A stretch of DNA of 62,750 nucleotides, filler included, from Reclinomonas americana ATCC 50394 (GCA_048213135.1; 4 parts of 2 records of this genome joined end to end with filler, not necessarily neighbours in it), one strand, 5' to 3'; numbered from the whole stretch's first letter, positions 10,407-50,375 are shown. The notes: generated by a model not told the origin, from the letters alone. Program-made: numbers and translations.

Positions 10407-11393
10407 AGAGAGAGAGAGATTCAGCAAGGGACAGAAAGGGACGAACGGAATTACATGCATCCTGCAGAGCTGGGATGAAAATGTCCGCGGCGTGCATGCA
10501 CAATGGGAAGCAGAGTGGTGTGCAAAACAAGACGCGTCGAAACAAATATCGGTGATTCGCTCTCCTGAGGCACATACATGAAAGATGCACGCACAACAGA
10601 CACCACAAAGAGACAGAACAGACTCCCAGGTGATTCATCGAGCTTGCACACAAAATGGAGGTGAGAAAGAGGCAAGCATGCAGAGGGAGACGTGCTTCAC
10701 TACCGCACACTGTCATTCACATGACAGGGCAACAAACACGGGAGAAGAATTCACCACCATCAACAACGACCTCACTCTCCTCCTCTGTCATCCTCTCTTC
10801 CCCACCTGCATCCCGCGTAATCACCTACTCTCCCTCGCAAGACACGAAAAACGACTCACAATCACCAGCAGCCACCGCTCTCCCTCCCTCCGACTCACCA
10901 ACTCAGCACCGGAAAAGGACGACCTCGGCATCCTCGACGATGAAACAGCGCAGAACCAGCTCGGGAAGACACCGCGAATCTTCTCTCTCCTGCATCTCCT
11001 GCACAGCATGCATGGCCGAGCGCGCGGCGTCGAGTTCGAGGCGAGCAAGGCCACGCGGCGTCGACCACACTCGTATCGTCTTGTCTTGGCCACCCGCGCT
11101 CACAATGTGGAGACCATCCGGAGAGACGGCCACAAACGACACCCATCCAGTGTGACCATTCAACCGTCGTACTTCCTCGCCACTCGCCAGAGACCACACC
11201 CGCACGGTGCTGTCTCCGCTCCCACTAATGATGTGCTGGCCATCGGGAGTAACAGCGACAGACGACACCCATGCAGTGTGTCCCTCCAGTCGGCGAACCT
11301 CTTCTCCACTTGCCAGTGACCACACTCTCACCGTGCTGTCCCCGCTCCCACTCATTAGTTTTGACCCGACGGTGAATGTGACAGGATGCAGCT

Positions 11394-11440
11394 CCTTGAC
11401 CCTTAACCCTTAACCCGGGGGCCCCTACCCTTGACCCTTG
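11394..11440. repeat. Telomere-like heptamer tract (CCCTT[A/G]A)n with a central GC-rich interruption
   Basis: CCTTGAC CCTTAAC CCTTAAC CCGGGGG CCCCTAC CCTTGAC CCTTG: 7-nt periodicity is maintained throughout. Confidence 0.7.
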
Positions 11441-11832
11441 TGGTATAGCCGAGCTGCTTCCGGTGCCAGTTGATGGCCTGCAAGTCCTTGTGGATTGAGT
11501 AGTACTTGATGTGGTTCCGGGCGCGGTACTTGACGTACACGGCCACGCATCGATCGATGTGTGCGTCGTCCCAACACGTGTCCACTGCAGCCTGATGCAA
11601 TGCAGGGTCGCGATCTGGGATGGACTCTGCAGAGGAGCGTGCGTCAGCACGGTGCAGCGTAGTGTGTGCAAGAGCAGTTCGTCTCACCAATGCAGCACGC
11701 ATGCTCTCGCAAGAACGCTGTAAACTGTTGCACGATGTAGCGGTAGTCTGACACGGTCTTCGGAGCAAGGTTGCCCACAGCACCAGCCTCCACAATCTCG
11801 TGATCCAGGTCGCGGAACAGCTCGCTCTCCAT
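11403..11832 (-). CDS. Truncated tyrosine recombinase, N-terminal SAM-like/core-binding domain only (122 aa, one intron 11687-11627)
   Basis: Exon 11832-11688 and exon 11626-11403 join in phase across GTGAGA...gctgac...ctctgcAG. Motifs NLAPKTVSDYRYIVQQFTAFLREH and VAVYVKYRARNHIKYYSIHKDLQAINWHRKQLGY match the helical pattern of Cre/integrase N-terminal domains. No catalytic R-H-R-Y region is present. Confidence 0.65.
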
Positions 11833-12226
11833 CGTGCGTCAAAAAGGAACTGCGGAGCGAATGGAAGCACGGTCAGTTGATGCTCTTTCGGAGCTGGCGT
11901 GCGCCGTGGCGCACGCCAATAGAAGAGCGTGCAGCCACAGTTCACTGTGCGCGCGCACACACATTCCTTCCATATACACACTAGTATCTACACAGTTCTA
12001 CCTAACATTACTAGATACAATGTGCTGGCCGTCGGGAGTGATGTCGACAGACCACACCTTGTCAGTGTGTCCTTCCAACCGTCGCACTTCTTCGCCACTC
12101 GCCAGTGACCACACACGTACCGACCCGTCGAAGCCGCCGCTCACGATGCGCTGACCGTCGGGAGTGACGGCGACAGAGAGCACCGCCTGCGTGTGACCCC
12201 GCAAGATCTGTGTCGACCATGGGTAC

Positions 12227-12263
<37 letters not shown>

Positions 12264-14677
12264 GCAACAGCCACAAATACGAATCCTTCGCACGTGTGTG
12301 TGAGCGCACCTTGGTTGTCATTGGAATCAGGAAGGATAATGTCACTTGTGCCCTCTCTTGTAGGTTCGCTTCTGCTAACTTCCTTTCTTCGAAGAGCAAG
12401 CCACCTGGTCGTTACTCTCCTGCGGTGGTCACGAAGAGTCTGTTCTTATCTCCTCGTGTGTGTGTGTGTGATTTGCTCGCTCGCTAGCGGGATTGTCACT
12501 GTTTCCCGCCTTTCTTCTCCCGCCTTGCTCCGAGACGTCGTTCATCCCTCGCCAGGCTGTAGCCAGCACCTCACGCATCATGCGGTAGTGTGAGAGCAAT
12601 GCGGCTCCGATGATGCGTGCGGGCTTTCGAAGACCGACATGTGACTCGTCGATGAGAAATCGGCAGAATGGACAAGCAGGGTGGCGACACAAGGTGGCGC
12701 TCCACTGCACCGTACGTGTCCAGCGACACTCTCTTTCTACTGCCCTGCATTCTCTCTCAACAAGGACTGGCATGTCGGGCTGCTTGGATACGCAGCTGTG
12801 GCCCTGGTGTGCTGATGCCACGGCACACCAGAGAATCCGATGAACACCGAGTCTTCGAAACCTCACGCCTCCTTGGATCGGCCCACAGCGAAGCTGACGA
12901 GGTGCACGTCATGATGGTACGACGAAGAACGAGAGCCACACGGAACAGGAGAGGAGAGACCAGTACAGTAGCACGTGCACAGCGATGGAAGAGACAGTCG
13001 TGTCGTGAGGCTCGCCTCCTCTCACCCAACTCACAATCAATGCTTCGTCCCTTCAATCACACTCACAGTCGGTCGGTGCATTGTCTCATGCACGCACTGT
13101 GTAGCACGGAACCACGTGTCTTCGCATGCCAGCGACGAGTCACTTGCCAGCACGCCTGTGCTCAGATTACACACAGCACTGAGTCAGTCAATCTCCAAGT
13201 CCCGCCAACTTGCTCCTCAACACAGATGCAGAACGCGTACGCACCAGGCCACGCGCGCGTGTGCAGTCTCCCATGGCCATCACCATCATTACTTGGCGGC
13301 GACAGCAGCAACCAAGAAGCGCACATCATCGATCCGCTCTGACTTGCCAACCGGGATCGAGAACGATCCACCGACCAGGCCACCCATCGGGAAATACGAC
13401 ACGCATGTGTCCACCCATGAGTAGATTGCCGAGCACGCGTCTGCAGTCTTCCATGACCACCAGCATCATCACTCGACAGAGACGGCGGCAACCAAGGTGC
13501 GCACATCATCGATCCGCTTCGACTTGCCAGCCGGGATTGAAAACGATCCACCGACCAGGCCATCCATCGCACATCACGACACGCATGTGTACATCCACCC
13601 AGCCACGTTCTGCATGACGTGCACGGCCTGCATGAATGAAGTGAGTGGATGGGAAGGAGGAAAGAGAGATCACGAAGAACAGGGCCACACAACTGCTGAG
13701 TGCATGGTGGGATGCGAGTGGGGAGCCGAGTGAGTGAGGTGACAGCCGGCAGTGGGCGATGCACAGCACGCCTGCAATCATTACGGAACAACGAGGCGGA
13801 CCTGCCCCTAAGGTCTCTGCATGCCGGTGTGCTGTGAGGAAAGAATGGAGGACGGGGAGAGATATCTCAATGACGAACACGCCGATCAGCATCTGATACC
13901 AACACGCGTTTGGGCAAGAGGCAAGGCGAGGGACGGTTCTGCACACACATCCATCCCGGCAAGGGAGAGAGAGAGCAGAGTCAGTATGCAGGTATGCCAC
14001 CTCACACACTTCGGTATCGGGAAGCTCACCGTGATGGACTGGCAATCGATGGCAGTCGGAACACGGTGAGCGGACCAGCAGCTCGGCCTTGAGCGTGTGC
14101 GGCAACGAGGGGTGGATGGCTGGGGAATCAGATGAGCGCACAAAGGCAGGGAGATGGCGGAGAAAGAGATAGACTCTGCAGGAGGCAGGAAAAGAGAGCT
14201 GAAAGACAGGCATTCTTCAGAGCCGGAAGGAGAATGTGCACGGCGCACAGGCACAATGAGAGGAAGAAAAATGGCACCAAGAAGGTGTACAAAACAAGAA
14301 GCGAGGAAACAATCATCGTTGACTCGCTCTCCTGGGGCACGTACATGGGCGACGAAAGATGCACACACAACAGACATCACAAAGAGACAAACAGATGCAA
14401 CAGGCTCCCAAGTGATTCATCGCACTTGCACACAAAATTAAGGTGAGGAAAAGGCACGCACACAGGGAGACATGCTTCACCCCGCACACTCACATTCACA
14501 TGACAGGACAACACACACGATAGAACAATTCATCATCAACAACGACCTCTCTCTCCTCCTCCGTCATCCTCTCTTCCCCCATCTGCACCATGCACAACCA
14601 CCCATTCTCCCGCGCAGGTCACGAAAAAACAATTCACAATCACCAGCAGCCACCTTCCCTCCCTTCGACTCACCGCC

Positions 14678-15830
14678 TCAGCACCGGAAAAGGACGACCT
14701 CGGCATCTTCGACGATGAAACAGCGCAGAACCAGCTCGGGAAGGCATCGTGAATCTACTTCCTCCTGCATCTCCTGCACAGCTCGCATGGCCGAGCGCGC
14801 GGCGTCGAGTTCGAGACGAGCAAGGCCACGCGGTGTGGACCACACTCGCACAGTATTGTCTTGACCACCGGCACTCACAATGTGCAGACCATCGGGAGAG
14901 ACAGCCACGCACGACACCCATCCAGTGTGACCAACAAACCGTCGCACTTCCTCGCCACTCGCCAGAGACCACACCCGAATGGAGCTGTCCCCGCTCCCAC
15001 TCACGATATGTTGGCCGTCGGGAGTGACGGCGACACAATACACCCATGAAGTGTGTCCCTCCAACCGTCGCACTTGGTCTCCACTCGCCAGTGACCATAC
15101 TCGCAGGGTGCGGTCCCCACTCCCACTAAAAATGTGCTGACCATCAGGAGGGACGGAGACAGAGTATACCCATCCAGTGTGTTTCTCCAACCGTCGCACT
15201 TCTACCCCACTCGCCAGCAACCACACTCGCACGGTATGATCTCCAGCCCCACTCACAATGTGCTCACTATCAGGGGTGACAGCGACTGACCACACATATC
15301 CAGTGTGTCCCTCCAGCCGTCGTACCTCGTCCCCACTCGCCAGAGACCACACTCTCACTGTGGTGTCCCAGCTCCCACTCACGATGTGCTGTCCATTGGG
15401 GGTGACGGCGACAGACCACACCTTATCATCGTGTCCCTCCAACCGTCTCACCTCCTCGCCACTCTCCAGCGACCACACACGCACGGTACAGTCTCCACAC
15501 CCACTCACTATCTGCTGGCCATCTGGGGTGACGGCGACAGACCACACCGGACCAGTGTCTCTCTCCAGTCGTCGCACTTCTTCTCCGCTCGCCAGAGACC
15601 ACATTCGAACGGTGCTGTCCATGCATCCACCAACAATGTGTTTGCCATCGGGAGTGACTGTGACCGATCGCACCGAAGAAGCGAGACCCTGAATGATCCG
15701 TCATCATTCGTGGTGAGACGCACTTGCACATAAACACAAAGAACAACAACCTACACAAGCACAAGCACACGAATGCATGCACAGACACCAAACACGCAAA
15801 GTGCGCATACATTCACACCTTGGTTGTCAT
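14678..15830 (-). CDS. WD40-tail family copy 2, 7 WD40 repeats plus conserved tail
   Basis: Exon 1 15830-15819 (MTTK), exon 2 15688-14678 (GLASSVRSVTVTPDG...) in frame. 42-aa GH...VW repeats. Confidence 0.92.
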
Positions 15831-17881: not shown

Positions 17882-19037
17882 TCAGCATCGGAAAAGGACG
17901 ACCTCGGCACCCTCGACGATAATGCAGCGCAGAACCAGCTCGGGAAGGCATCGTGAATTTTCCTTATCCTCTTGCATCTCCTGCACGGCGTGCATGGCCA
18001 AGCACGCGGCGTCGAGTTCAAAGCGAGCAAGGCCACGCGGCGTGGACCACACTCGCACCGTCTTGTCTTTGCCACCCGCGCTCACAATGTGCTGACCATC
18101 CGGAGAGACAGCCACAGACGATACCCATCCGTCATGTCCCACCAACCATCGCTCGTCCTCGCCACTCGCCAAAGACCATACCCGCACGGTGCTGTCTCCG
18201 CTCCCGCTAACAATGTGCTGACCGTTGGGAGAGACCGCCACAGACGTCACCGCACCAATGTGTCCCTCCAACCGTCGCACTTCCTCCCCACTTGCCAGCG
18301 ACCACACCCGCATGGTGCGGTCCTCGCTCCCACTTACGATGTGCTGACCATCGGGAGTGACAGCGACTGACCACACAAATCCAGTGTGTCCTTCCAACCG
18401 TCGCACCTCTTTGCCATTTGTCAGCGACCACACACGCACGGTATGATCTCCACCGCCGCTAACAATGTGGTGACCATCGGGGGTGACGGCGACTGACCAC
18501 ACCTTATCGATGTGCACCTTCAGTCGTCGCGTCTCTTGCCCACTTGACACCCGAATTGTGTTATCCCCACTACCACTCACGATATTCAGACCATCGGAGG
18601 TGACGGCGACAGACATCACCGCATTGGTGTGTCCACTCAATCGTCGAACCTCCTTGCCACTCACCAACGACCACACCCGCACCGTCTGGTCTGCACACCC
18701 ACTCACAACGTACCGCCCGTCGAGAGTGACAGCGACAGTGTACACCACATCAGTGTGTCCCACCAGCCGTCGCACCTCTGTGCTACTCGCCAGAGACCAC
18801 ACTCGGATGGTGCTGTCCTCACACCCACCGACAATGTGCTTGCCATCGGGAGTGACGGCGACGGACCTCACCGCAGTCGCGAGACTCTGAATGATCTGCG
18901 TCGATCATTCGCGGTGAGACGCACACACACAAACATGTACACACAAACAGCAACCGCACACGATGCACGAGCACACGAATGCATGCACAGACACCAACCA
19001 CGCAAAAGTGCGCATACATTCACACCTTGGTTGTCAT
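17882..19037 (-). CDS. WD40-tail family copy 3, 7 repeats (the third has a small in-frame deletion)
   Basis: Exon 1 19037-19026 (MTTK), exon 2 18886-17882 (SLATAVRSVAV...). Repeat 3 reads DNTIRV-SSGQE. Confidence 0.9.
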
Positions 19038-21227: not shown

Positions 21228-22515
21228 TCAGCACCGAAAAAGGACGACCTCGGCATCCTCGATGATGAAACAGCGCAGAACCAGCTCGGGAAGGCATCGT
21301 GAATCTACTTCTTCCTCCAGCATCTCCTGCACGGCGTGCATGGCCGAGCGCGCGGCGTCGAGTTCGAGACGAGCAAGGCCGCGTGGCGTGGACCACACTC
21401 GCACGGTCTTGTCCTTGCCACCCGCACTCACAATGTGCTGGCCATCAGGAGAGACGGCGACAGAATACACCCATCCAGTGTGTCCCTCCAGCCGTCGCAC
21501 TTCCTCGCCACTCTCCAGAGACCACATCCGCACGGTGCAGTCCCCGCTCCCGCTAAAACTGTACTGACCGTTGGGAGAGACCGCCACAGACGTCACCCAT
21601 TCAGTGTGTCCGTCCAGGCGTCGCACCTCCTCCCCACTCGCCAGAGACCACATCCGCACTGTGCAGTCCCAGCTCCCACTCACGATGTGATGACCCTCAG
21701 GAGTGATGGCGACAGACGTCACAGCGTCGGCGTGTCCCTCTAACCGTCGCACCTCTTCCCCACTCGCCAGCAACCACACCCGCACTGTGTTGTCTCCACC
21801 CCCACTCACAACGTGCTTACCATCGGGGGTGACTGCCACAGACCACACCGAAATAGTGTGTCCCTCTAACCGTCGCACCTCCTCGCCACTCTCCAGCGAC
21901 CACAGACACATTGTCTTGTCGAAGCCGCCGCTAACGACGTGCTGTCCATTGGGGGTGACGGCGACTGACCACACCTCCCGGGAGTGACCCATCAACCGTC
22001 GCACCTCCTCGCCACTCTCCAGCGACCACACACGCACGGTACAGTCTCCACCGCCACTGACAATAAGCTGACCATCAGGAGTGACGGCGACAGAGAACAC
22101 CCCGCCATCGATATCGTGTCCCTCCAGCCGTCGCACCTCCTTGCCACTCGCCAGAGACCACACACGTAGGGTGTTGTCTCCACCTCCACTCACGATGTGC
22201 TTGCCATTGGGAGTGACAGCGACAGATTGCACCCATGAAGTGTGTCCCTCCAGCCGTCGCACCTCTTCTCCACTTGCCAGAGACCACACTCGAACGGTAC
22301 TGTTCAAGCACCCACCGACAATGTGCTTGCCGTCGGGAGTGACAGCGACGGACCGCACTGCAGCGGGACTCTGAATGATCTGTGCCGATCATTCGCGGTG
22401 AGGCGCACATGCACAAACACAAAGAACAACAACCGCACACACGCACGAGCACACGAATGCATGCACAGACACCAACCACGCAAAAGTGCGCACACATTCA
22501 CACCTTGGTTGCCAT
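21228..22515 (-). CDS. WD40-tail family copy 4, 8 repeats
   Basis: Exon 1 22515-22504 (MATK), exon 2 22370-21228 (SPAAVRSVAV...), open frame. Confidence 0.92.
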
Positions 22516-24380: not shown

Positions 24381-25742
24381 TCACTCACATTCACATGAAA
24401 GGGGAACAAGCACGGGAGAACAGTTCTGCATCATCCACGTCGACTTCTCTCCTCTCGTCAGTCGTCCTCTCTTCCCCCACCTCCATCCCGCATGATTACC
24501 CGCACCCCCGCGCAAGACACGAAAAAACAACTCACAATCACCAGCAGCCACCTTCTCTCCCTTCCGACTCACCAACTCAGCACCAAAAAGGACGACCTCG
24601 GCATCTTCGACGATGAAACAGCGCAGAACCAGCTCGGGAAGGCATCGTGAATCTACTTCCACCTCGACTGCCCTCCTCTCCTCCTGCATCTCCTGCACAG
24701 CCTGCATGGCCGAGCGCGCGGTGTCGAGTTCGAGATGAGCAAGGCCACGCGGCGTGGACCACACTCGCACGGTCTCGTCGTAGCCACCCAGACTCACAAT
24801 GTGCTGACCATTGGGAGAGACGGCCACAGACGACACCCGTCCAGCGTGTCCCTCCAACCGTCGCACCTCCTCCCCACTCTCCAGAGACCACACCCGAATG
24901 GTCATGTCTCCGCTCCCGCAAACAATACGCCGACCATCTGGAGTGACGGCCACAGACCACACCGCACCATTGTGTCCGTCCAACCGTCGCACTTGGTCTC
25001 CACTCATCAGTGACCACACTCTCGCCGTGTTGTCCCAACTGCCACTCACGACGTGTTGACCATCGGGGGTGACGGTGACAGAGTATACCCGTCCAGTGTG
25101 TCCTTCCAGCCGTCGCACCTCCTCCCCACTCGCCAGCAACCGTACCCGCACGGTATGATCTTCACCCCCACTTACAATGTACTGACTATCAGGGGTGACG
25201 GCGACAGACCAAATCTCGTCAGTATGCCCCTCCAGCCGTCGTACCTCCTCCCCACTCGCCAGAGACCACACCCGAATTGTGCAGTCCCAGCTCCCACTCA
25301 CGATGTGATGACCATCTGGAGTAACAGCGACAGACCACACCTTAACATCGTGTCCCTCCAGCCGTCGTACCTCCTCGCCACTCTCCAGCGACCACACACG
25401 CACGGTACAGTCTCCACCGCCACTCACGATGTGCTGATAATCAGGAGTGACGGCGACAGAGAACACCCCGCCATCGTGTCCCTCCAGCCGTCGCACCTCC
25501 TTGCCACTCGCCAGAGACCACACTCGAATCGTGTTGTCCATGCATCCACCAACAATGTGGTTGCCATCGGGAGTGACGGCAATGGACCTCACCACATCGA
25601 GACTCTGAATGATCTGTGTAGATCACCCGCGATGAGGTATACACACACACAAACGACAACCACACACATGCACAAGCACACCAATGAACACACAGACACC
25701 AAACACGCAAAAGTGCGCACAACTTCACACCTTGGTTGTCAT
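24381..25742 (-). CDS. WD40-tail family copy 5, 7 repeats; a 1-nt deletion just before the stop gives a read-through C-terminal extension
   Basis: Exon 1 25742-25731 (MTTK), exon 2 from 25604. Plus-strand caccaaaaaggac versus caccggaaaaggac in copies 1 and 2 changes LFRC* to LFGAELV... Confidence 0.87.
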
Positions 25743-27793: not shown

Positions 27794-28082
27794 TCACTCC
27801 GTCCAACACCATCCAGGCGCACGGCGTTCAATCACCTCTGCATCCTCCAATACAAAACACCGCAGCACAACATCGACGAGGATCCAGTCACGATCATCTT
27901 CGTCGACGAGCAGCTCGTTGACAGCCAGCACGGCTGAGCGTGCGGCCGCAACCTCTTGCCCCGCCAGCCCACGCGGAGTGGACCACACACGGATCGATTT
28001 ATCCGCACTGCCACTCACGACGAGCTGGCCATCGGGAGTAACGACGACAGAGTATACCCATCCAGTGTGTTCCCTCCAACCG
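27794..28082 (-). pseudogene. Divergent WD40-tail relic: last WD repeat plus tail only
   Basis: HTGWVYSVVVTPDGQLVVSGSADKSIRVWSTPRGLAGQEVAAARSAVLAVNELLVDEDDRDWILVDVVLRCFVLEDAEVI. A 1-nt frameshift lies in the RLEG-H codons and upstream repeats are absent. Confidence 0.75.
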
Positions 28083-32404: not shown

Positions 32405-32442
<38 letters not shown>

Positions 32443-33649: not shown

Positions 33650-33975
33650 GGGAGAAGGAACAATGCAACACAGACAACTCACAGAGACCGTCCGAACCTT
33701 GCGATGCATGCACCGGCGATGGTGGAGACAGGGAGAGAGACAACTATCCATTGGAGCAGGATCACGGATCGAGCTGCTGAACAGACACAATGAATGAATG
33801 AGTGAGCGAGGAGAGCGAGGGAGAGGAAGAAGGAACAATGCAACAGGGACAACTCACAGAGACGTCCGAACCTTGCGATGCATGCACCGGCGATGGTGGA
33901 GACAGCTGCAGGGAGACAACTCTCCATTTGAGCGGGATCACGGATCGTGCTGCTGAACAGACACAATGAATGATT
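33650..33975. repeat. Two-copy ~180 bp direct repeat with exon-like borders on the minus strand
   Basis: gaaggaacaatgcaaca...gacaactcacagaga...ccgaaccttgcgatgcatgcaccggcgatggtggagacag...gctgctgaacagacacaatgaatga occurs twice. Confidence 0.8.
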
Positions 33976-37680: not shown

Positions 37681-37780
37681 NNNNNNNNNNNNNNNNNNNN
37701 NNNNNNNNNNNNNNNNNNNNNNNNTTAATTAATTAANNNNNNNNNNNNNNNNNNNNNNNNNNNNNNNNNNNNNNNNNNNN
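37681..37780. other. Artificial scaffold linker
   Basis: N44-TTAATTAATTAA-N44. Confidence 0.97.
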
Positions 37781-38294
37781 AGGGGTTGTATTTGAAAGAA
37801 TCTGGGCAATTCAAGAGGGGAGTGGCCTATCGAGCGCACTTGTCTCTCTTCTAAAGCCACATGACCCCCTCTTTCCGCATCATCTTTCAGAACAAATAAT
37901 AGATTACCTTCAGAAATCAAGTGACATTACTCTTCTGATCAGGGGTTGGGGTATCCTGATGAAAGGAAAGGGCTCTATTCATGAAACACTGCCCGGTGAG
38001 CGCACTTTACACACACAAAACGAGCCAATGGACGCCATATTTTTCAATCATTGTTTCGAAGGGAAAGGAAGGAGCGAAGCAACATCCTTTTCTTTTTCCT
38101 TTCTTTTTTGAATTCAGAAGAGAGGAGCCGCAGGCGACTCTCTTCTCTTTGAAGGAGAGAGGGACTTTCTTTTCTCTTTCTTTGAATTGAAAAAAGGCAC
38201 ATGAAGGAGAAGGGACTTTCTTTTTCTTTTTATGAAATGAGAAGAGAGGAGCCGCAAGGCGACTCTCTTCTCTTTGAAGGAGAGAGAGACTTCT

Positions 38295-40870: not shown

Positions 40871-41716
40871 NNNNNNNNNNNNNNNNNNNNNNNNNNNNNN
40901 NNNNNNNNNNNNNNNNNNNNNNNNNNNNNNNNNNNNNNNNNNNNNNNNNNNNNNNNNNNNNNNNNNNNNNNNNNNNNNNNNNNNNNNNNNNNNNNNNNNN
41001 NNNNNNNNNNNNNNNNNNNNNNNNNNNNNNNNNNNNNNNNNNNNNNNNNNNNNNNNNNNNNNNNNNNNNNNNNNNNNNNNNNNNNNNNNNNNNNNNNNNN
41101 NNNNNNNNNNNNNNNNNNNNNNNNNNNNNNNNNNNNNNNNNNNNNNNNNNNNNNNNNNNNNNNNNNNNNNNNNNNNNNNNNNNNNNNNNNNNNNNNNNNN
41201 NNNNNNNNNNNNNNNNNNNNNNNNNNNNNNNNNNNNNNNNNNNNNNNNNNNNNNNNNNNNNNNNNNNNNNNNNNNNNNNNNNNNNNNNNNNNNNNNNNNN
41301 NNNNNNNNNNNNNNNNNNNNNNNNNNNNNNNNNNNNNNNNNNNNNNNNNNNNNNNNNNNNNNNNNNNNNNNNNNATTAGTAAAGTTGTTGTTGTTGCAAT
41401 GCAGTGTCGACGTCCGCTTCTCCTATTCTGCCTTGCACAAAGGCGATCAACGAGAGCAGCTCGCACGGAGACACACGCACGCACAAGTCTAGTGAACAGT
41501 GAGAGAGAGCAGGTGGTGAGGTGCATGTGCAGCGTGCGCACACAACAAAGCACTTCATTCGCCACGAACTCAATATCGGGAGAACAGCAGCTGGTATTTC
41601 TGTGTCCGCTTGCTTCACGTCGACTGCCACGGGCTTCAAAGGAGGTGATATAACCAGGCAACAGCGAGAGCCTACGCCGTAAGCATCCACTAGGTTTCTC
41701 GTCTCGTCTCTCTCCC

Positions 41717-41868
41717 TCTCCTCTTCCCTCCCTCTTCCCTCTTCCCTCTTCCCTCTCCCTCTTCCCTCTTCCCTCTTCCCTCTTCCCTCTTCCCTCTTCC
41801 CTCTTCCCTCTTCCCTCTTCCCTCTTCCCTCTTCCCTCTTCCCTCTTCCCTCTTCCCTCTTCCCTCTC
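41717..41868. repeat. (CTTCCCT)n heptamer satellite
   Basis: About 20 near-perfect copies. Confidence 0.95.
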
Positions 41869-42098
41869 CTTTTCCCTCCCTCCCCCCATCAATTATCATC
41901 GCAAAACAACGTTACACTTCTTCATCATGGGAAGTCGGCAAAAATTGCACACAGACGCACAACCCCACCCCCACAAGAAGAGGAGGGGTAAAACGCCTGC
42001 ACGCAACAAGCAGCAAAACAGCAAACACACAAAGGAAAAACACCAAAACGGGAAAACAAAGTCTACCCCCACCACTCTCCACTCTCTCACACACATTA

Positions 42099-43814
42099 TT
42101 ACTGGCACAGGTACTCGGCCTCAATCACGCGGAAGGCCACGCACGAGCCGCTCTCAAAGTCGGTCACGTCAGCCCAGCAAGCGCCCAGACCGTTGCAACG
42201 GGCCGAGATCTGGGTCTTGAGGTCGACAACAGTGCTGCAACCCTGGCCCGGCAGAGGAGCGCTGCAGCCGTCCGACTGGTCGGCCGGGCGAATGCGGGCA
42301 CCCTGAATCGCAATCTTGCCCGAGCCGTGGCAGTTGAGGTCCATGGCGAAGCCACCGCAGGCGCGAGCGCGCTGAATGTCGGGGCTCGGGGTCGGGGTCG
42401 GGGTCGGGGTCGGTGGCGGTGGCGGCGGTGGCGGCGGGGCGGCAGCGGCAACGCAAGCATAGTCGGTCTCGAGCACGAGGTACTTGTTGCACTCGGTCGA
42501 GTCGAAGCTCGAGCTCGACGCCGTGCACGTCTGCTTGCCCGAGCAGCGGTCAGACACCTTCACCGTCACGTCGGTCAGCACGCAGGTCGACGGGTAGTAG
42601 TGGTACGGGGCGCCATTGTAGTTGTTGTAGTTGTAGTTGTAGTTGTTGTTGCCACCGTAGGGGAAGCCACCGTAGAAGTTGTTGTAGGGGAAGCCACCAT
42701 AGGGGAAGCCGCCGAGGTAGCCATTGTAGCCGTTGTAGCCAGTGAAGCCCTGGAAGCCGTTGAAGCCGTTGTAGCCGGGGAAGCCAGTGAAGGGGAAGCC
42801 GCCATAGGTCGGGTATCCCTGGCTGTTGTAGAGAGGCACAGGGCAGTTGTCGGCGTTGTTGGTCGAGTAGTTCTGGCCGTACGTGTACGTGGCCAGCGGC
42901 TGCACTGGGCGCAGGTTGGCGCGGCTCACAGTGATAATCTGGTTCGCCTGGCAGGTGATCGTCAGCTGCGCCTGAGGGCACGCCTTGACGCGGGTCTGGC
43001 CGACAGCCGGCGCCGGCAGCACGTACGGGTACGTGTACGGCACGTTCGGGTAGTACGGCAGGGTCGGGTAGGACGCTGGAAAGGGGGGAAGGGTGTGGTG
43101 AGCAAGAGGGTGGGGGGAGAAGTGAAGGGTGTGAAGGAGGAGACGCAACGCTGCTGCGGCTGGGTCGGCTGCTGCGGGAAGTACGGCAGCTGCGGGTACT
43201 GCTGCGGGTAGCCACCATAGTAGTTGTTCAGGCCACCATAGTAGTTATTGAGGCCACCACCATAGGCACCACCGGCACCGTAGTAGTTGTTGTTGCCACC
43301 AAAGTTGGTGTAGCTACCCGGGCGGTAGGCACCATAGGCGCTGCCGTAGTAGTTGCTCGGCGAGTAGGCGCCGGGGCGGTAGGCCTGCAGCGAGGTGTAG
43401 GGGGCGTAGGCGTTGTAGTTGTTGTAGTTGCCGCCGTAGAGGTTGTCGTACGGGTTGCCAGCACCACCAAAGCCGCCGTATGCGCCGCCGTAGGCGCCGC
43501 CGTAGAGCGAGGCTGGGGGGGAGAGGGTGGTGAGGGGGTGGGAGGGGGAGGGAGGGGGAGGGAGAGAGAGAGAGAGAAGAAAAAAAAAGAGGGTGCAAGA
43601 GTGTGCAAGAGAGAGGAAGAGTGTGCAATGTGCAAGACAAGAGTGTGCAGGAGAGAGAGAGAAGAGGGTGCAAGAGGGTGCAAGAGAGAGAGAGAAGAGT
43701 GTGCAAGAGAGTGCAAGAGTGAGAGAGAAGAGTGTGCAAGAGAGTGCAAGAGTGAGAGAGAAGAGTGTGCAAGAGAGTGCAAGAGTGAGAGAGAAGAGTG
43801 TGCAAGAGTGCAAG

Positions 43815-43851
<37 letters not shown>

Positions 43852-43949
43852 AGACGGAGAAACGAAAATGAGGAAGAAAGATTGGTTGACGACAAATATG
43901 TGAGACAAGTCAGGAAAGAACTGCAAGAGGATGCACTGGTACAGGAGGC

Positions 43950-44006
<57 letters not shown>

Positions 44007-45085: not shown

Positions 45086-46163
45086 ATGACCTCCCCCTCC
45101 CCCTCCCCCCTCCCTCCCCCACAAATGCCTCCGCGGCCACACCGACACCGTGCGTTCCGTGGCCATCACTCCCGACGGCCAGCACATTGTGAGCGGCGGG
45201 CCTTGATTCAACCCTCCGAGTGTGGTCACTGACGGCCGGGAACGAGGCGGAGATGCGGCGGCTGGAGGGACACACGGATGCGGTGAATTCTGTTGCCGTC
45301 ACCGCAGATGGACAGCGCATTGTGAGTGGGGGCGATGACTCGATTGTGCGCGTGTGGTCGCTGGCGAGTGGAGGGGCACGTGTGGGGCGTGTGTTCTGTT
45401 GCCGTCACTCCCGATGGTCAACACGTTGTGAGCGGGGGTGGAGACCACACTGTGCGTGTGTGGTCGCTGGCGAGTGGCGAGGAAGTTCGGCAGTTGGAGG
45501 GCCACACAAGCACTGTTGGTTCTGTCGCCGTTACTCCTGATGGGGAGCGCATCGTGAGTGGCAGCTGGGATAACACTGTGCGCGTGTGGTCGCTGGCGAG
45601 TGGAGAAGAAGTGCAACGAATGGAGGGACACACTTTCTGGGTGCGCTCTGTCGCCGTCACTCCCGACGGCCGGCACGTTGTTAGCGGAGGTGCTGACGTC
45701 GACGACACTGTGCGCGTGTGGTCTCTGGCGAGCGGAGAAGAAGTGCGACGATGGGCGTGGCACACTGGGTGGGTGCAGTCTGTCGTCGTTACTCCCGATG
45801 GTGAGTGGGAGTAATGACAAACTGGTGTCTGTGTGGTCACTGGCGACGGGAGAGGAGGTGCGACGATTGGAGGGCCACATGGCTGTGGTGTGGTCAGTCG
45901 CCATCTCGTCGGATGGTCAGCATGTGGTGAGCGGAAGTGTTGACCATACGGTGCGAGTGTGGTCCACACCGTGTGGCCTCGCTCGGCAGGAGCTCGATCG
46001 TGCGCGAGCGGCAATGCATGCTGTGCAGGAGATGCTGCTGCAGGATGAGGAGGAGGAGGAGGATCCACGTTGCCTGCCGGAGCTGGTGCTGCGGTGCTTC
46101 TTGGTCGAGGAGGCAGAGGTGGTCCTGTATCGCTGCGCCACTAACACCAGCCTCGGATTGTGA
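45086..46163 (+). pseudogene. WD40-tail family plus-strand copy A, frameshifted
   Basis: Starts MTSPSP like copies B and C. Frameshifts near 45120 and 45200 and deletions near 45373 and 45800; the tail is intact (...RCLPELVLRCFLVEEAEVVLYRCATNTSLGL*). Confidence 0.85.
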
Positions 46164-46309
46164 ACGTGGGGGTTTTCTCTATGCTTGCTTTATTGTTTCT
46201 TGTGGTCCGCGTTTTCTCTGTTGTGCTGCGCTGCTGAGGCGCAGGTCGTTGTTGATCGGTGAATGTGGGTGTTTTTCTTTGTTTTCTTTGATGTTTTGTT
46301 GTCGAGTTC

Positions 46310-47272
46310 TGGTCCACGCCTTGCGGCCTCGCTCGGCAGGAGCTCGATTGTGCACGAGCGGCAATGCATGCTGTGCAGGAGATGCTGGAGGAGGATGAGG
46401 AGAAGGAGGATGATCCACGTTGCCTGCCGGAACTGGTGCTGCGGTGCTTCTTGGTTGAGGAGGCAGAGGTGGTCCTGCATCGCTGCGCCACTAACACCAG
46501 CCTCGGATTGTGAATGTCGGTGGGGGTTTCTCTCTTACTTGCTTTATTGTTTCTTGTAGTCCGCGTTTTCTCAGAAGTTGTTGTGCTGCGCTGCTGAGGC
46601 GCATGTTGTTGTGGATCGGTGAATGTGGGTGTTTTCTCTTTGTTTTCTTTGATGTTTGTCGTCGAGTCCGGTCCACGCCTTGCGGCCTCGCTCGGCTGGA
46701 GCTCCATTGTGCACGAGCGGCAATGCACGCTGTGCAATAGATGCTGCAGGAGGAGGAGGAGGAGGAGGATCCACGTTGCCTCCCGCAGCTGATGCTGCGG
46801 TGCTTCTTGGTTGAGGAGGCTGGGGGTTTTTCTCTTGTTTGCTTTCTCGTTGTTTTCCTTTCCGCTTGTTGTCCGTGTTGCCTCTCGGTGCGACAATCTT
46901 TGTACGATGTTTCTTGGTCGAGGAAGCCGAGGTTGCTCTGTATCGCTGCGCCTCTAACACCAGCCTCGGATTGTGAACATGGGTGGGGTTTCTCTTTGCT
47001 TGCATTCTCGTTTCTTGTGGTCCGCGTTTTCTCAGAAGTTGTTGTGCTGCGCTGCTGAGGCGCATGTTGTTGTGGATCGGTGAATGTGGGTGTTCCCGCA
47101 GCTGGTGCTAAGCTGCTCCTTGTTCAATCGCTGTCTAGCGGTTTCTCTCTTTGTTTGCTTTCTCGTTTTTCCCTTTCCGCTTGCGGTGCGTGTTGCCTCT
47201 CGGCGCGACAATCTTTGTGCGATGTTTCTTGGTCGAGGAAGCCGAGGTTGCGCTGCATCGCTCCGATTTGTG
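46310..47272 (+). repeat. Tandem duplications (~360 bp) of the C-terminal tail module plus 3' flank
   Basis: 46310-46513 is an uninterrupted WSTPCGLARQELDCARAAM...TSLGL* frame. 46670-46820 has an internal stop. Further partial copies lie near 46905-46975 and 47220-47272. Confidence 0.88.
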
Positions 47273-47462: not shown

Positions 47463-48542
47463 ATGACCTCCCCCTCCCCTCCCCCCTCCCTCCCCTTCAA
47501 GTGCCTGCGTGGACACACCGGCACGGTGTACTCCGTCGCCGTCACTCCCAACGGCCAGCACGTGGTGAGTGGGAGTCGCGATTCCACTCTCCGAGTGTGG
47601 TCACTGGCGAGTGGCGAGGAGGTGCGACGACTGGAGGGTCACAAGGATGTGGTGTGGGCCGTCGCCGTCACTCCCGACGGTCAGCACGTGGTGAGTGGGA
47701 GCGAAGATAAGACAGTGCGAGTGTGGTCACTGGCGACAGGGGAGGAGGTTCGACGGCTGGAGGGACACACTGGCTGGGTGTGGTATGTTGCCGTCACCGC
47801 TGATGGTCAGCACATCGTCAGTGAAAGCAAGGACAAGACCGTGCGGGTGTGGTCACTGGCGAGTGGAGAACAAGTGCGACAACTGCGGTTGGAATTCTGC
47901 ACTCTCTCTCCCGATGGCCAGTACGTGGTCAGTGCGAGTGAGGATGGAACAGTGTGCGTGTGGTCGCTGGCGAGTGGTGAAGAGGTGCGACGACTGGAGC
48001 GCACCAGCAGGGCATTCTCCGTTGTGGTCGCCCCCGATGGCCTTCATTGTGCGAGCGCGAGTGACCACATGACAGTGTGCGTGTGGTCACTGGCGAGTGG
48101 CGAAGATGTGCGACGGCTGGAGGGGCACATGGGGTGGGTGACAGCCATCACCATCACTGCTGACGGGCAGTACGTTGTGAGTGGCGGTCAAGATGGAAGC
48201 GTGCGAGTGTGGTCGATGGCGACGGGAGAAGAGGTGCGCCGAATGGGGGGACACGTGGGTGTAGTGCTGTCTGTCGCCGTCACCCCCGATGGTCAGCACA
48301 TTGCGAGCGGCAGTCTTGACCAGACGGTGCGCGTGTGGTCCACTCCGTACGGCCTCGCTCGGCAGGAGCTCGATTGTGCGCGAGCGGCCATGCGCGCGGT
48401 GCAAGAGATAATGGAGGTGGAGGAGGAAGAGGATGAGGAGGATCCGCGTTGCCTGCCAGAGTTGGTGCTGCGATGCTTCTTGGTCGAGGATGCCGAGGTT
48501 GTTCTTCATTGGTGTTCAGTCGACGCCAGCCTCCGACTGTGA
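47463..48542 (+). CDS. WD40-tail family plus-strand copy B, 7 repeats, intronless
   Basis: Open frame MTSPSPPPSLPFKCLRGHTGTVYSV...WSTPYGLARQELDCARAAMRAVQE...RCLPELVLRCFLVEDAEVV... Confidence 0.92.
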   Translation: MTSPSPPPSLPFKCLRGHTGTVYSVAVTPNGQHVVSGSRDSTLRVWSLASGEEVRRLEGHKDVVWAVAVTPDGQHVVSGSEDKTVRVWSLATGEEVRRLEGHTGWVWYVAVTADGQHIVSESKDKTVRVWSLASGEQVRQLRLEFCTLSPDGQYVVSASEDGTVCVWSLASGEEVRRLERTSRAFSVVVAPDGLHCASASDHMTVCVWSLASGEDVRRLEGHMGWVTAITITADGQYVVSGGQDGSVRVWSMATGEEVRRMGGHVGVVLSVAVTPDGQHIASGSLDQTVRVWSTPYGLARQELDCARAAMRAVQEIMEVEEEEDEEDPRCLPELVLRCFLVEDAEVVLHWCSVDASLRL

Positions 48543-49286
48543 AATGTCGGGGGTTTCTGTTTGCTTGCGCTCGTGTGGTAGAGAAGAAGTGCTCTTGTCT
48601 GAATATGATTCGAGTTCTCGCGACTTGTTCAACGCACCGAGAGTGAACATTCATTCACACACAAGAAAACCTGCCATCCGTCCTCAAGATCGACGTGGAA
48701 CTCCCTTCCCGAAATCAACGTCGCCGTCGTGCGTGCCTCTTTCCGTACCCTGCGCTTCTACTCACAATGCACCCCTGTGTCACACTACGAGACTCGCACT
48801 TGTTGCAGCGTAAAAGAAAAAACAAAAACACAGTGCACTTCGCATCTCTGTCCCTCCTTTTTCTCCGGTCCTTCTCCCTTTACACGGGGGGGTGNNNNNN
48901 NNNNNNNNNNNNNNNNNNNNNNNNNNNNNNNNNNNNNNNNNNNNNNNNNNNNNNNNNNNNNNNNNNNNNNNNNNNNNNNNNNNNNNNNNNNNNNNNNNNN
49001 NNNNNNNNNNNNNNNNNNNNNNNNNNNNNNNNNNNNNNNNNNNNNNNNNNNNNNNNNNNNNNNNNNNNNNNNNNNNNNNNNNNNNNNNNNNNNNNNNNNN
49101 NNNNNNNNNNNNNNNNNNNNNNNNNNNNNNNNNNNNNNNNNNNNNNNNNNNNNNNNNNNNNNNNNNNNNNNNNNNNNNNNNNNNNNNNNNNNNNNNNNNN
49201 NNNNNNNNNNNNNNNNNNNNNNNNNNNNNNNNNNNNNNNNNNNNNNNNNNNNNNNNNNNNNNNCCACCCCCCCTTACACACACATC

Positions 49287-50375
49287 ATGACCTCCCCCTC
49301 CCCTCCCCCCACCCTCCCCTCCAAGTGCCTCCAAGGGAACACCGGCTGGGCGCTCTCTTTATCCTTCACACCCGACGGCCATCACGTGGTGAGTGGGAGC
49401 AGTGATGGAATAGTGCGAGTGTGGTCACTGGCTGCCAGTGGCGAGGAGGCTCGACGACTGGAGGGACACACTAAACTTGTGGGGTCAGTCGCCGTCACTC
49501 CCGATAGTCAGCACGTGGTGAGTGGGAGTGATGACAAGACCGTGCGCGTGTGGTCACTGGCGAGTGGCGAAGAAGTGCGACGGTTGGAGGGACACGCAGA
49601 GAGGGTGCACGCGGTCGCCGTCACTCCCGATGGTCGGCACATTGTGAGCGTGTGTGCCAACTACGAAGTCCGAATGTGGTCACTGGCGGATGGCGAGGTG
49701 CACGTGGTGCGACGGTTGGAGTTGCAGTCCGGCGTTCTCACTTGCGACGGCCAGTTAATTGTGAGTGAAAGCGACGACGGAACAGTGTGCGTGTGGTCGT
49801 TGGCGAGTGGCGAAGAAGTGCGACGGGTGATGCGCTCGAGCAGAGCACTCTCCATCACGGTCACCCCCGATGGCCAGCAGTGCGCGAGCATAGGTGTCGG
49901 CACGAGTGTAAACGTGTGGTCACTGGCGAGTGGTGAAGATGTGCGACGGTTGGAGGGGCACACGGGTTGGCTGACAGTCATCGCCATTTCTGCTGATGGA
50001 CAGTACGTGGTGAGTGGCAGTCAAGACGCGACAGTGCGTGTATGGTCCATGGCGACGGGAGAAGAGGTGCGCCTATTGGAGGGACACACGGGTGCAGTAC
50101 TGTCGGTCGCCGTCACTGCCGATGGTCAGCACATTGCGAGCAGCAGTGTTGACGGCACTGTGCGCGTGTGGTCCACACCGTGCGGCCTCGCTCGGCAGGA
50201 GCTCGATTGTGCACGAGCGGCAATGCGCGCGATGCAGGAGATGCTGGAGGAGGAGGAAGAGGATGAGGAGGAGGATCGGCGTTGCCTGCCAGAGTTGGTA
50301 CTGCGGTGCTTCTTGGTCGAAGATGCAGAGGTTGTTCTTTATCGCCGCTCCACCGACGCCAGCCTCCGACTGTGA
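49287..50375 (+). CDS. WD40-tail family plus-strand copy C, 7 repeats, intronless
   Basis: Open frame MTSPSPPPTLPSKCLQGNTGW... collinear with copy B, including the shortened fourth repeat. Confidence 0.92.
   Translation: MTSPSPPPTLPSKCLQGNTGWALSLSFTPDGHHVVSGSSDGIVRVWSLAASGEEARRLEGHTKLVGSVAVTPDSQHVVSGSDDKTVRVWSLASGEEVRRLEGHAERVHAVAVTPDGRHIVSVCANYEVRMWSLADGEVHVVRRLELQSGVLTCDGQLIVSESDDGTVCVWSLASGEEVRRVMRSSRALSITVTPDGQQCASIGVGTSVNVWSLASGEDVRRLEGHTGWLTVIAISADGQYVVSGSQDATVRVWSMATGEEVRLLEGHTGAVLSVAVTADGQHIASSSVDGTVRVWSTPCGLARQELDCARAAMRAMQEMLEEEEEDEEEDRRCLPELVLRCFLVEDAEVVLYRRSTDASLRL

What the first reader, a model, noticed from the sequence alone, without database searches (positions are those of the whole stretch)
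10903..50375. Expanded family of stand-alone hypervariable WD40 propellers with a constant tail: candidate immune-like receptor repertoire
Seen: at least 10 genes/pseudogenes in two clusters built from near-identical 126 bp (42 aa) repeats GHxxxVxSVAVTPDGQHIVSGSxDxTVRVWSLASGEEVRRLE. Variation concentrates after GH (TDK, DDK, TGY, TSW, SRE, TIS, ADA, TEW, NGA, even a DIDGG insertion), before SV (W/Y/F/T/Q/M/S) and around the D of SG.xDx (W/G/F/E/A; T/H/S/C/K/R/N/M). Known: these are the top-face ligand-binding positions that are hypervariable in Podospora HET-D/HET-E (HNWD) non-self receptors, which also use 42-aa high-identity repeats. Unlike those, there is no NACHT or effector domain here, only a 4-12 aa N-terminus and a constant tail. 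Inference: a birth-and-death repertoire of variable binders, plausibly against intracellular bacteria or viruses.
Basis: partly seen in the sequence, partly recalled or inferred. Interest (0 to 1): 0.85.

Follow-up and report, generated by a model that had tools for sequence, protein, structure and literature searches.

The report
Stand-alone variable WD40 propeller gene family
Two tandem gene arrays in a draft protist genome encode small seven- or eight-bladed WD40 propeller proteins that share a rigid scaffold and an unknown constant tail but differ at their ligand-binding face, a pattern known from fungal and bacterial immune-type sensors but found here without any signalling domain.

Summary
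The WD40 family is real, but the repeats are not near-identical. I found 56 solid 42-residue units in nine loci plus tail-only fragments. Mean pairwise identity is 0.70 (nucleotide) and 0.64 (protein). The six most variable unit positions are exactly 3, 4, 5, 7, 23 and 25. These lie in the d-a loop, the start of strand a and the b-c turn, which is the top face, as in Podospora HET-D/E. Between paralogous blades, dN/dS is about 1.1-1.6 at these sites. It is about 0.25-0.30 on the scaffold and 0.14-0.35 in the tail. An excess over 1 is only marginal. Blades group by position across genes, so the family evolves by birth-and-death duplication, not concerted evolution. The proteins look stand-alone. 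H and I have their own ATG. B-E gain one from a predicted conserved 12-nt first exon and a 117-139 nt GT-AG intron. No Pfam domain other than WD40 occurs in the spacers or elsewhere in the window. A tail profile finds only four proteins among 1.84 billion. All are short propeller-plus-tail proteins, and one is a Reclinomonas americana EST. Five loci are intact and four are broken. An immune role is untested. This is a new variant of a known kind.

The parts
10903..11409 (-). Locus A: three blades (the first truncated) plus constant tail, stop TGA. This is the 3' piece of a broken gene.
11410..12012 (-). About 600-bp insertion that splits a blade of gene A. One ORF piece (11646-11832) has a weak, sub-threshold match to a phage-integrase SAM-like domain (E 0.12).
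12013..12219 (-). Locus A2: the 5' piece of the broken gene, with two blades. It has no in-frame ATG and lacks the mini-exon motif.
14678..15830 (-). Gene B, 7 blades plus tail. Predicted exon 1 at 15819-15830 (ATG plus 3 codons), intron 15689-15818 (130 nt, GT..AG), exon 2 at 14678-15688.
17882..19037 (-). Gene C, 7 blades (blade 3 lacks 3 residues) plus tail. Predicted exon 1 at 19026-19037, intron of 130 or 139 nt, exon 2 from 18895 or 18886 to 17882.
21228..22515 (-). Gene D, 8 blades (blade 3 carries a 2-residue insertion in the d-a loop) plus tail. Predicted exon 1 at 22504-22515, intron of 124 or 133 nt, exon 2 from 22379 or 22370.
24381..25742 (-). Gene E, 7 blades plus a tail with an 8-residue insertion. 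The usual stop is lost and the ORF runs about 60 codons further. Predicted exon 1 at 25731-25742, intron of 117 or 126 nt.
27794..28072 (-). Locus F: one blade plus a divergent tail. The tail is 56% identical to D's tail, and the blade-plus-tail stretch is 45% identical to the C-terminal 89 residues of database protein P0002. F is truncated or is the last exon of a gene that runs into low-complexity DNA.
45086..46163 (+). Locus G: ATG at 45086, at least 7 blades plus tail, with at least four changes of reading frame. It is a pseudogene or a poorly assembled copy.
45955..46820 (+). 350-bp tandem repeat, 2.5 copies, that duplicates the tail. There is a complete tail-only copy at 46310-46513 and a partial third copy.
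47463..48542 (+). Gene H: uninterrupted ORF from ATG, 359 aa, 7 blades (blades 4 and 5 shortened and divergent) plus tail. AF2 model has pLDDT 88.
49287..50375 (+). Gene I: uninterrupted ORF from ATG, 362 aa, 7 blades plus tail. An assembly gap ends 23 nt upstream of the ATG.

Best explanation
This is a lineage-restricted multigene family of small stand-alone WD40 propeller proteins of about 340-390 aa. Each protein has a very short N-terminus, 7 or 8 blades built from unusually regular 42-residue repeats with a full Asp-His-Ser-Trp tetrad, and a conserved C-terminal tail of about 55-65 residues that belongs to no known family. The genes sit in two tandem arrays and evolve by gene duplication and loss (birth-and-death). 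The scaffold and tail are under purifying selection. Six residues per blade, all on the top face, change at or slightly above the neutral rate and are rich in Trp, Tyr, Phe and Gly.

The most likely working model is inferred, not shown. Each paralog would use its own top face to bind a different target, and the shared tail would couple all of them to one common partner or machine. On that model the family is a set of interchangeable recognition adaptors. What they recognise, and whether it relates to defence, is unknown.
For: Shown by tool results:
- WD40 identity and 7-8 repeats.
- A confident 7-blade model for H, pLDDT 88.2 and pTM 0.83. Its best PDB matches are repetitive bacterial propellers 5yzv and 2ymu and designer WRAP-T at 38-40% identity, then WDR5 at 30%.
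- The six most variable positions are exactly the d-a loop, the start of strand a and the b-c turn.
- dN/dS between same-position blades of paralogs is 1.1-1.6 at those sites and 0.23-0.33 elsewhere. For B-E plus H-I the bootstrap gives 1.32 (0.92-1.87) against 0.27 (0.21-0.36).
- Tail dN/dS is 0.14-0.35 in 8 of 8 pairs.
- Trp makes up 34 of 296 residues at the six sites. Aromatic residues are 17 of 49 at position 5 and 23 of 49 at position 7.
- The nearest relative of a blade lies in another gene for 49 of 51 units.

Evidence that the proteins stand alone:
- H and I start at their own ATG.
- A 21-nt motif holding ATG plus 3 codons plus a GT donor is identical in 4 of 4 genes B-E, with 0.01 matches expected by chance. 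An in-frame AG acceptor lies 117-139 nt downstream.
- None of 68 spacer ORFs and none of 118 other ORFs hit Pfam.
- The tail profile searched against 1.84 billion proteins finds 4 hits of 116-394 aa. All are propeller plus tail.
- One of those hits is named by EukProt as a Reclinomonas americana EST, so a relative is transcribed.
Against: - There are no expression data for this genome. No run was listed and no genome is held, so intactness, copy number and splicing are unverified.
- The start of B-E depends on a predicted intron.
- Top-face omega is not robustly above 1. Its interval includes 1, and the higher value comes from pairs chosen for similarity. Relaxed constraint could therefore explain the rate, though not the aromatic bias.
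- The paralogs are old, with dS of about 0.3-0.56, so the differences may be long-fixed specificities and not ongoing diversification.
- Four of nine loci are broken or altered.
- The tail has no detectable relative, fold or partner. Its last 28 residues are modelled with pLDDT below 50.
Confidence: 0.6

Rival explanations
1. One reading: an immune-like receptor repertoire. The variable propellers would detect microbial or viral molecules in an arms race, and the tail would signal to a defence effector.
For: The same four core positions are hypervariable as in HET-D/E (PMC1805685). Top-face omega is at or slightly above 1. The family shows tandem birth-and-death with pseudogenes. Binding-type residues are enriched. 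Related bacterial and fungal repetitive WD40 arrays are usually attached to STAND, TIR or Roc modules (domain lists; earlier scan notes, unchecked).
Against: There is no NTPase, death or other effector domain in the genes, spacers or window. There is no concerted evolution or near-identity that would supply fast diversification. The paralogs are old, with dS 0.3-0.56. Omega above 1 is not robust. No polymorphism, infection or expression data exist.
Confidence: 0.15
2. The top face is simply unconstrained. The proteins would act through the tail or another surface, for example as structural or scaffolding subunits, and the 'hypervariability' would be neutral drift on a very stable consensus-like propeller.
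For: The interval for top-face omega includes 1. Hu et al. 2017 (PMC5587647, passages read) report that repetitive WD40 proteins generally keep the scaffold conserved while hotspot sites are diverse.
Against: Strong compositional bias at the variable sites argues for selection on what sits there. Trp is 11% overall and 29% at position 5 in the 'all' set, and aromatics make up nearly half of position 7. Blades D3 and E2 keep 6 of 6 top residues identical.
Confidence: 0.12
3. The ORFs are the terminal exons of larger NLR/STAND-type genes whose N-terminal exons lie elsewhere.
For: B-E (and A2) have no in-frame ATG. B-E have a stop directly upstream, and B-E and A2 show splice-acceptor-like sequence there. 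The assembly is full of gaps, with 15 N-runs. The closest propellers in databases are often fused to Roc, TIR or other modules.
Against: A conserved 12-nt ATG mini-exon with a GT donor lies 117-139 nt upstream in 4 of 4 genes. H and I have a direct ATG. The array period is only 3.2-3.4 kb, and its spacers have no Pfam hit (0 of 68 ORFs). Every tail-bearing protein found is 394 aa or shorter and begins about 12 residues before the first strand, like the predicted B-E products.
Confidence: 0.05
4. The arrays are mostly dead: remnants of a once-functional family now decaying.
For: A/A2 is split by an insertion. F is reduced to one blade. G has at least four frame changes. E has lost its stop. Tail-only duplicates exist.
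Against: B, C, D, H and I keep 340-386-codon open frames. Scaffold omega is about 0.25-0.30 and tail omega 0.14-0.35 at dS 0.3-0.56, which requires long-lasting purifying selection.
Confidence: 0.05

Closest known systems
Podospora anserina HNWD/NWD family (HET-D, HET-E, HET-R): NACHT-WD40 fungal NLRs
   Same: Both have 42-residue WD40 units with a conserved scaffold. Hypervariability falls at the same structural places, the d-a loop pair and the b-c turn pair (PMC1805685, passages read). Both are multigene families that include pseudogenes.
   Different: The window genes have no HET or NACHT domain. Their repeats are only about 70% (nucleotide) and 64% (protein) identical, against 'up to 100%' in HNWD. 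[quoted passage not shown] The window genes carry a novel C-terminal tail.
Highly or moderately repetitive WD40 proteins of bacteria, protists and fungi (Hu et al. 2017, PMC5587647). Structural examples are PDB 5yzv (Thermomonospora WD40 domain), 2ymu (Nostoc repetitive propeller) and the designed WRAP-T 7big.
   Same: These are the best structural matches, with TM 0.91-0.93 on the target and 38-40% identity. They share the full tetrad residues and the conserved-scaffold, diverse-hotspot pattern (passages read). The closest sequence hits are metagenomic and cyanobacterial WD40 proteins at up to 58% identity over the propeller only.
   Different: Internal protein identity of 0.64 falls below that paper's 0.7 cut-off for 'highly repetitive' (computed with my own method). 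The window proteins are eukaryotic, intron-bearing by prediction, stand-alone and tail-bearing. The bacterial proteins are mostly C-terminal sensor domains of large multidomain proteins.
WD40 substrate receptors with a short docking box (F-box/WD40 FBXW proteins; WSB1/2 with a C-terminal SOCS box). The comparison is from my own knowledge.
   Same: The architecture logic is the same: a propeller that recognises targets plus a short constant motif that plugs into shared machinery. The tail contains a Leu-Pro-Glu-Leu...Phe stretch that is reminiscent of the start of an F-box.
   Different: No F-box or SOCS-box match appeared at E up to 1. There was no PDB sequence match and no language-model neighbour. 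Too few residues follow the motif for a complete F-box. The resemblance is a lead only.
Gcp1-3, Pex7-like WD40 proteins that co-occur with the mitochondrial T2SS in jakobids and others (bioRxiv 10.1101/790865, passages read)
   Same: They are stand-alone WD40 proteins reported from jakobids, including Reclinomonas.
   Different: Gcp1-3 are described as Pex7-related, single conserved orthologues, some with a PTS1 signal. Nothing in the passages I read mentions regular repeats, arrays or this tail. I had no Gcp sequences, so the relation was not tested. That paper's supplements, which I could not see, may list them.

Membership tests
WD40 beta-propeller (Pfam PF00400) | Several consecutive GH...WD repeats recognised by the family model | tested here: met
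   E 4e-73 to 1e-91 with 7-8 matched stretches in B, C, D and E. The HMM scan found 56 units scoring above 30 in the window.
WD40 beta-propeller (Pfam PF00400) | Closed 7- or 8-bladed propeller fold with four strands per blade | tested here: met
   The AF2 model of H has pLDDT 88.2 and 28 strands in 7 blades. Foldseek matches solved WD40 propellers at E 8e-32.
WD40 beta-propeller (Pfam PF00400) | [quoted passage not shown] | tested here: met
   Unit positions in the 'all' set: H2 in 43 of 49 units, S20 in 51 of 56, D24 in 50 of 55, W30 in 52 of 54.
Fungal HNWD/NWD NLRs (HET-D/E type) | Central NACHT NTPase domain | tested here: not met
   No Pfam family hit in 0 of 68 spacer ORFs of 45 aa or more, or in 0 of 118 other window ORFs of 110 aa or more at E up to 1e-4. 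For one search I gave 118 of 141 ORFs and dropped 23 low-complexity ones from 28-41 kb. The gene products are only 340-390 aa.
Fungal HNWD/NWD NLRs (HET-D/E type) | N-terminal HET or other effector domain | tested here: not met
   The N-terminus before the first blade is 16 residues in H and I, or 4 plus about 8 residues predicted in B-E.
Fungal HNWD/NWD NLRs (HET-D/E type) | Extremely conserved repeats homogenised by concerted evolution, grouping by gene or species and not by position | tested here: not met
   Nucleotide identity is 0.701 within genes and 0.697 between genes. The nearest neighbour lies in the same gene for 2 of 51 units, both ties. Same-position blades of paralogs are the closest relatives.
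Fungal HNWD/NWD NLRs (HET-D/E type) | Diversifying selection at the d-a loop pair and the b-c turn pair | tested here: inconclusive
   The same positions are the most variable. Omega is 1.32 with interval 0.92-1.87. It is 1.59 (1.02-2.50) on a biased pair set. No site-model test was possible.
Highly-Repetitive WD40 (Hu et al. 2017) | Internal repeat identity of at least 0.7 | tested here: not met
   Mean within-gene protein identity is 0.639. This falls in their 'moderately repetitive' band of 0.4-0.7. My computation is not their exact pipeline.
F-box or SOCS-box WD40 substrate receptors | Recognisable F-box or SOCS box | tested here: not met
   Tail-only Pfam scans at E up to 1 gave no family for D's tail and only AAA_lid_3 at E 0.3 for H's tail. 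There was no PDB sequence hit below E 0.7.
Propeller-plus-tail family (unnamed; defined here by the tail profile A2) | Conserved C-terminal tail directly after the last blade, on a protein of about 400 aa or less | tested here: met
   Ten tails in the window align with 21 invariant columns. Four database proteins carry the tail at their C-terminus, with E 3e-23 to 5e-4 and lengths 116-394 aa. P0002 and P0004 show only propeller families in Pfam.

The most novel reading that the evidence does not exclude
The family would be an NTPase-less innate recognition system of a deep-branching bacterivorous eukaryote. A germline repertoire of stand-alone propellers would have diversified top faces that bind foreign molecules from prey, symbionts or viruses. 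Their shared, otherwise unknown tail would plug every member into a single effector, for example a degradation or trafficking machine. In that system recognition and signalling would be split between separate proteins and not fused as in NLRs.
Probability: 0.15. Interest if true: 0.8.

Novelty: new variant of a known kind. Interest (0 to 1): 0.5.

Why it matters
Variable-face WD40 arrays are known as the sensor ends of fungal NLRs and bacterial STAND, Roco and TIR proteins. This window shows the same scaffold-plus-variable-face logic in a stand-alone protein with a novel constant tail. The family is expanded in tandem in a protist that appears related to jakobids, and it is maintained by birth-and-death and not by repeat homogenisation. 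If the tail docks the propellers onto a common partner, the family offers a simple, testable model of how recognition modules can be uncoupled from signalling modules. It also defines a new conserved C-terminal element with only four detectable relatives among 1.84 billion proteins. If the top-face differences prove to be old and fixed, it is simply a tidy lineage-specific adaptor family.

Tried and rejected
- Whole-genome census: no genome is held for this window.
- Expression and splicing: no sequencing run of any kind was listed.
- Earlier scan notes: none exist for this genome or for look-alike sequence.
- Tail-only word search among near-length proteins: nothing at E up to 0.001.
- Search with the N-terminal 75 residues of D among shorter proteins, to find a transcript-derived N-terminus: 419 generic WD40 fragments and no EukProt or jakobid hit among the 120 listed.
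- ESM Atlas on the tail: no usable hit.
- PDB sequence search with the tail profile: best E 0.72.
- Tail homodimer prediction: no verdict, score 0.01, with the tail's own fold uncertain. This is not evidence either way.
- Reading the out-of-frame ATG that sits 1 nt before the B-E frames as a start: rejected. It is out of frame in 5 of 5 copies and lies inside the predicted intron.
- Reading the 600-bp interruption of gene A as an intron: rejected. It would give a 5-blade product and A2 lacks the start exon.
- F-box or SOCS-box reading of the tail: no model support.
- Horizontal origin of the propeller from cyanobacteria: considered because of the hits. It was not pursued, because consensus-like repeats inflate identity.
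- Literature: searches listed no paper describing this tail or a stand-alone variable WD40 array in jakobids. I judged this from titles and abstracts of the listed papers, and read passages in PMC1805685, PMC5587647 and bioRxiv 10.1101/790865.

Full report
**What the window is.** The window is draft eukaryotic sequence. It contains 15 runs of N, has about 57% G+C with long purine-rich and microsatellite stretches, and shows short exon-like ORFs. No whole genome is held for it, no sequencing run could be listed, and the scan has no earlier notes on it. The only named relative of the family described here is an EST-derived protein that EukProt assigns to the jakobid Reclinomonas americana. That protein is 59-68% identical to the window's copies. 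The source is therefore probably a jakobid or a relative, but this is an inference.

**The observation.** An HMM built from window repeats, with seeds taken by coordinate, returned 60 rows. Of these, 56 score above 30 and two are noise. Pfam recognises 7-8 WD40 repeats in each of B, C, D and E, with E values of 4e-73 to 1e-91.

The loci are as follows.
- Minus strand, A2+A (12013-12219 and 10903-11409): one gene split inside a blade by about 600 bp of foreign sequence.
- Minus strand, B (14678-15700, 7 blades), C (17882-18904, 7 blades), D (21228-22388, 8 blades) and E (24381-25622, 7 blades, stop lost).
- Minus strand, F (27794-28072): one blade and a divergent tail.
- Plus strand, G (45086-46163): at least four frame changes.
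- Plus strand, a 350-bp tandem duplication of the tail (45955-46820).
- Plus strand, H (47463-48542) and I (49287-50375).

The minus array has a 3.2-3.4 kb period from B to F, and its spacers are themselves about 77% conserved. No repeat lies between 28.1 and 45.1 kb.

The units are not near-identical. For 51 units, after I dropped five fragments broken by frameshifts or the insertion, mean pairwise identity is 0.70 at nucleotide level and 0.64 at protein level. The maximum of 0.92 is seen between genes D and E. Within-gene identity (0.701) equals between-gene identity (0.697). Uncorrected synonymous difference between repeats is about 0.47-0.54. On the scale of Hu et al. 2017 (PMC5587647, passages read), this is 'moderately repetitive', just under their 0.7 cut-off.

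**Where the variation sits.** Ranked by entropy, the top six of the 42 unit positions are 25, 23, 7, 5, 4 and 3, at 3.44 to 2.30 bits. The next highest is 1.92 bits. In the AF2 model of H (pLDDT 88.2, pTM 0.83, 7 blades), the strands cover unit positions 6-11 (a), 17-22 (b), 26-31 (c) and 37-42 (d). Positions 3-5 therefore lie in the d-a loop, position 7 at the start of strand a, and positions 23 and 25 in the b-c turn. By propeller topology these all lie on one face, the top. Paoletti et al. 2007 (PMC1805685, passages read) place their four positively selected HET-D/E codons in the same two elements: pair 7,9 in the d-a loop and pair 25,27 in the b-c turn. Hu et al. note the same pattern of conserved scaffold and diverse hotspots for repetitive WD40 proteins in general, so the pattern itself is known.

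**Selection.** I compared same-position blades of paralogs using Nei-Gojobori counts with Jukes-Cantor correction.
- dN at the six sites divided by pooled dS is 1.34 (B-E), 1.33 (H-I), 1.12 (B-C) and 1.54 (C-E).
- For all other sites the ratio is 0.23-0.30, with dS of 0.41-0.56.
- For the independent pairs B-E and H-I together (553 codon cells, 78 of them top-face), omega is 1.32 with a bootstrap interval of 0.92-1.87. In 6% of replicates it is at or below 1. For the remaining sites omega is 0.27 (0.21-0.36).
- Nine reciprocal-best blade pairs give 1.59 (1.02-2.50). Those pairs were chosen for similarity outside the six sites, which lowers their dS. With the six sites' own dS the ratio is 1.05.
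- The tail has dN/dS of 0.14-0.35 in 8 of 8 pairs.

The scaffold and tail are therefore clearly constrained. The top face evolves about five times faster, at or slightly above the neutral rate, and positive selection is not demonstrated.

Two observations argue that the top face is functional and not simply free to drift. First, Trp is 34 of 296 residues at the six sites, and aromatics are 17 of 49 at position 5 and 23 of 49 at position 7. Second, individual pairs show sharp contrasts. D8 and E7 differ at 5 of 6 top sites but at only 1 of 25 others, while D3 and E2 keep 6 of 6.

**Mode of evolution.** For 49 of 51 units the nearest relative is a blade in another gene, usually at the corresponding position. 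The two exceptions are ties. First blades, last blades and several internal blades form cross-gene groups. H and I are colinear throughout. D relative to E shows one extra blade and a local change of order. In the terms used by Paoletti et al. [quoted passage not shown] It is not the concerted evolution that defines the HNWD system.

**Are the proteins stand-alone?** H and I are uninterrupted from an ATG, with 16 residues before the first GH. G has the same start but is frameshifted. The four minus-strand frames B-E have no in-frame ATG, and a TGA sits directly upstream. A conserved ATG lies 1 nt out of frame there. That region carries a pyrimidine or GT-rich tract, a CTCAC/CTCAT element and one or two in-frame CAG sites, which looks like a 3' splice site.

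I scanned the aligned spacers for conserved ATGs and found one followed by three codons and GTGTGA. A 21-nt pattern around it occurs exactly four times in the window, once upstream of each of B, C, D and E, with no mismatches. Only 0.01 matches are expected by chance. This gives a 12-nt first exon (Met-Thr-Thr-Lys, or Met-Ala-Thr-Lys in D), a GT-AG intron of 117-139 nt, and an in-frame junction with the WD40 exon. The predicted products begin about 12 residues before the first strand, as does the 394-aa database relative P0002. This gene model is an inference that needs cDNA.

Other evidence points the same way.
- None of 68 ORFs of 45 aa or more in two spacers hit Pfam at E up to 0.01.
- None of 118 ORFs of 110 aa or more outside the loci hit Pfam at E up to 1e-4. 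I dropped 23 low-complexity ORFs of the 141 before this search.
- A profile of the ten tails searched against 1.84 billion representative proteins found four hits, of 116, 147, 381 and 394 aa. In all of them the tail is at the C-terminus behind propeller repeats.

I found no sign of a fused NTPase form.

**The tail.** Ten copies align with 21 invariant columns. The model shows a helix of about 27 residues leaving the last blade (pLDDT 74-88), then an acidic stretch, then a low-confidence C-terminal segment that contains the most conserved motif. Pfam gave nothing at E up to 1 except AAA_lid_3 at 0.3. The PDB sequence search gave a best E of 0.72 and the ESM Atlas gave no usable hit. A Leu-Pro-Glu-Leu...Phe stretch recalls the start of an F-box, but this is my own recollection and it is unsupported by any model. 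F's tail is closer to that of P0002, whose propeller repeats are ordinary and divergent. This suggests the propeller-plus-tail architecture is older than the very regular repeats seen in this window.

**The propeller's relatives.** The best structural matches are repetitive bacterial WD40 domains (5yzv, 2ymu) and designed propellers derived from them, at 38-40% identity. WDR5 matches at 30%. The best sequence hits are metagenomic and cyanobacterial WD40 proteins, at up to 58% identity over about 76-87% of H. They never cover the tail, and some carry Roc/Ras or TIR families. Earlier notes of this scan describe bacterial arrays of this type attached to STAND, Roco or KAP modules (unchecked).

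**Verdict.** The finding is a real, selected, lineage-restricted family of stand-alone WD40 propellers with a novel constant tail and a diversified top face. Five members look intact (B, C, D, H, I), E is altered, and A, F and G are broken. The adaptor model, in which a variable face recognises targets and a constant tail docks to a partner, is my inference from the anatomy and the selection pattern. The immune reading remains possible but has no direct support, and the comparison with HNWD genes fails on three of four defining features. I rate it a new variant of a known kind, of moderate interest. Supplementary files of the cited papers were closed. Those of Hu et al. 2017 (lists of repetitive WD40 proteins in protists) and of the T2SS paper (jakobid WD40 proteins) might contain related entries.

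Noticed in passing
window 42099-43244 (-) and 51554-52528 (-): Two paralogous Cys-, Pro-, Gly- and Tyr-rich ORFs flank the plus-strand WD40 cluster. Both have weak, sub-threshold matches to the SUEL-type galactose/rhamnose-binding lectin domain (E 2e-4, bits 22 against a cut-off of 31).
   Followed up: partly
window 11410-12012 (-): The sequence that interrupts gene A holds an ORF piece (11646-11832) with a faint match to phage-integrase N-terminal SAM-like domains (E 0.12). It may be a remnant of a tyrosine-recombinase mobile element.
   Followed up: partly
window 28100-41900: About 14 kb of strongly strand-asymmetric, purine-rich low-complexity DNA (GC skew up to 0.43, AT skew up to 0.59). 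It has tandem repeats of 93, 103, 168 and 262 bp, AT-rich GAGA/TTTC microsatellite blocks and several large assembly gaps. It separates the two WD40 clusters.
   Followed up: no
window, stops of all WD40 loci (e.g. 10903, 14678, 17882, 21228, 46161, 48540, 50373): All ten tail-bearing frames end in TGA. In-frame TGA also directly precedes the B-E exon-2 frames.
   Followed up: partly
window 15700-15712, 18904-18916, 22388-22400, 12199-12211 (-): An ATG lies exactly 1 nt out of frame immediately before the WD40 frame in A2, B, C and D, and a GTG in E. It falls inside the predicted intron, and its conservation is unexplained.
   Followed up: partly
window 13256-13597 and homologous spacer positions: A 180-bp direct repeat (1.9 copies, 84% matches) lies inside the conserved 2.2-kb spacers of the minus array. 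One spacer (upstream of C) carries an extra copy in the alignment.
   Followed up: no
window 51082-51429: A 143-bp tandem repeat, 2.4 copies at 95% identity, lies just downstream of the plus cluster.
   Followed up: no
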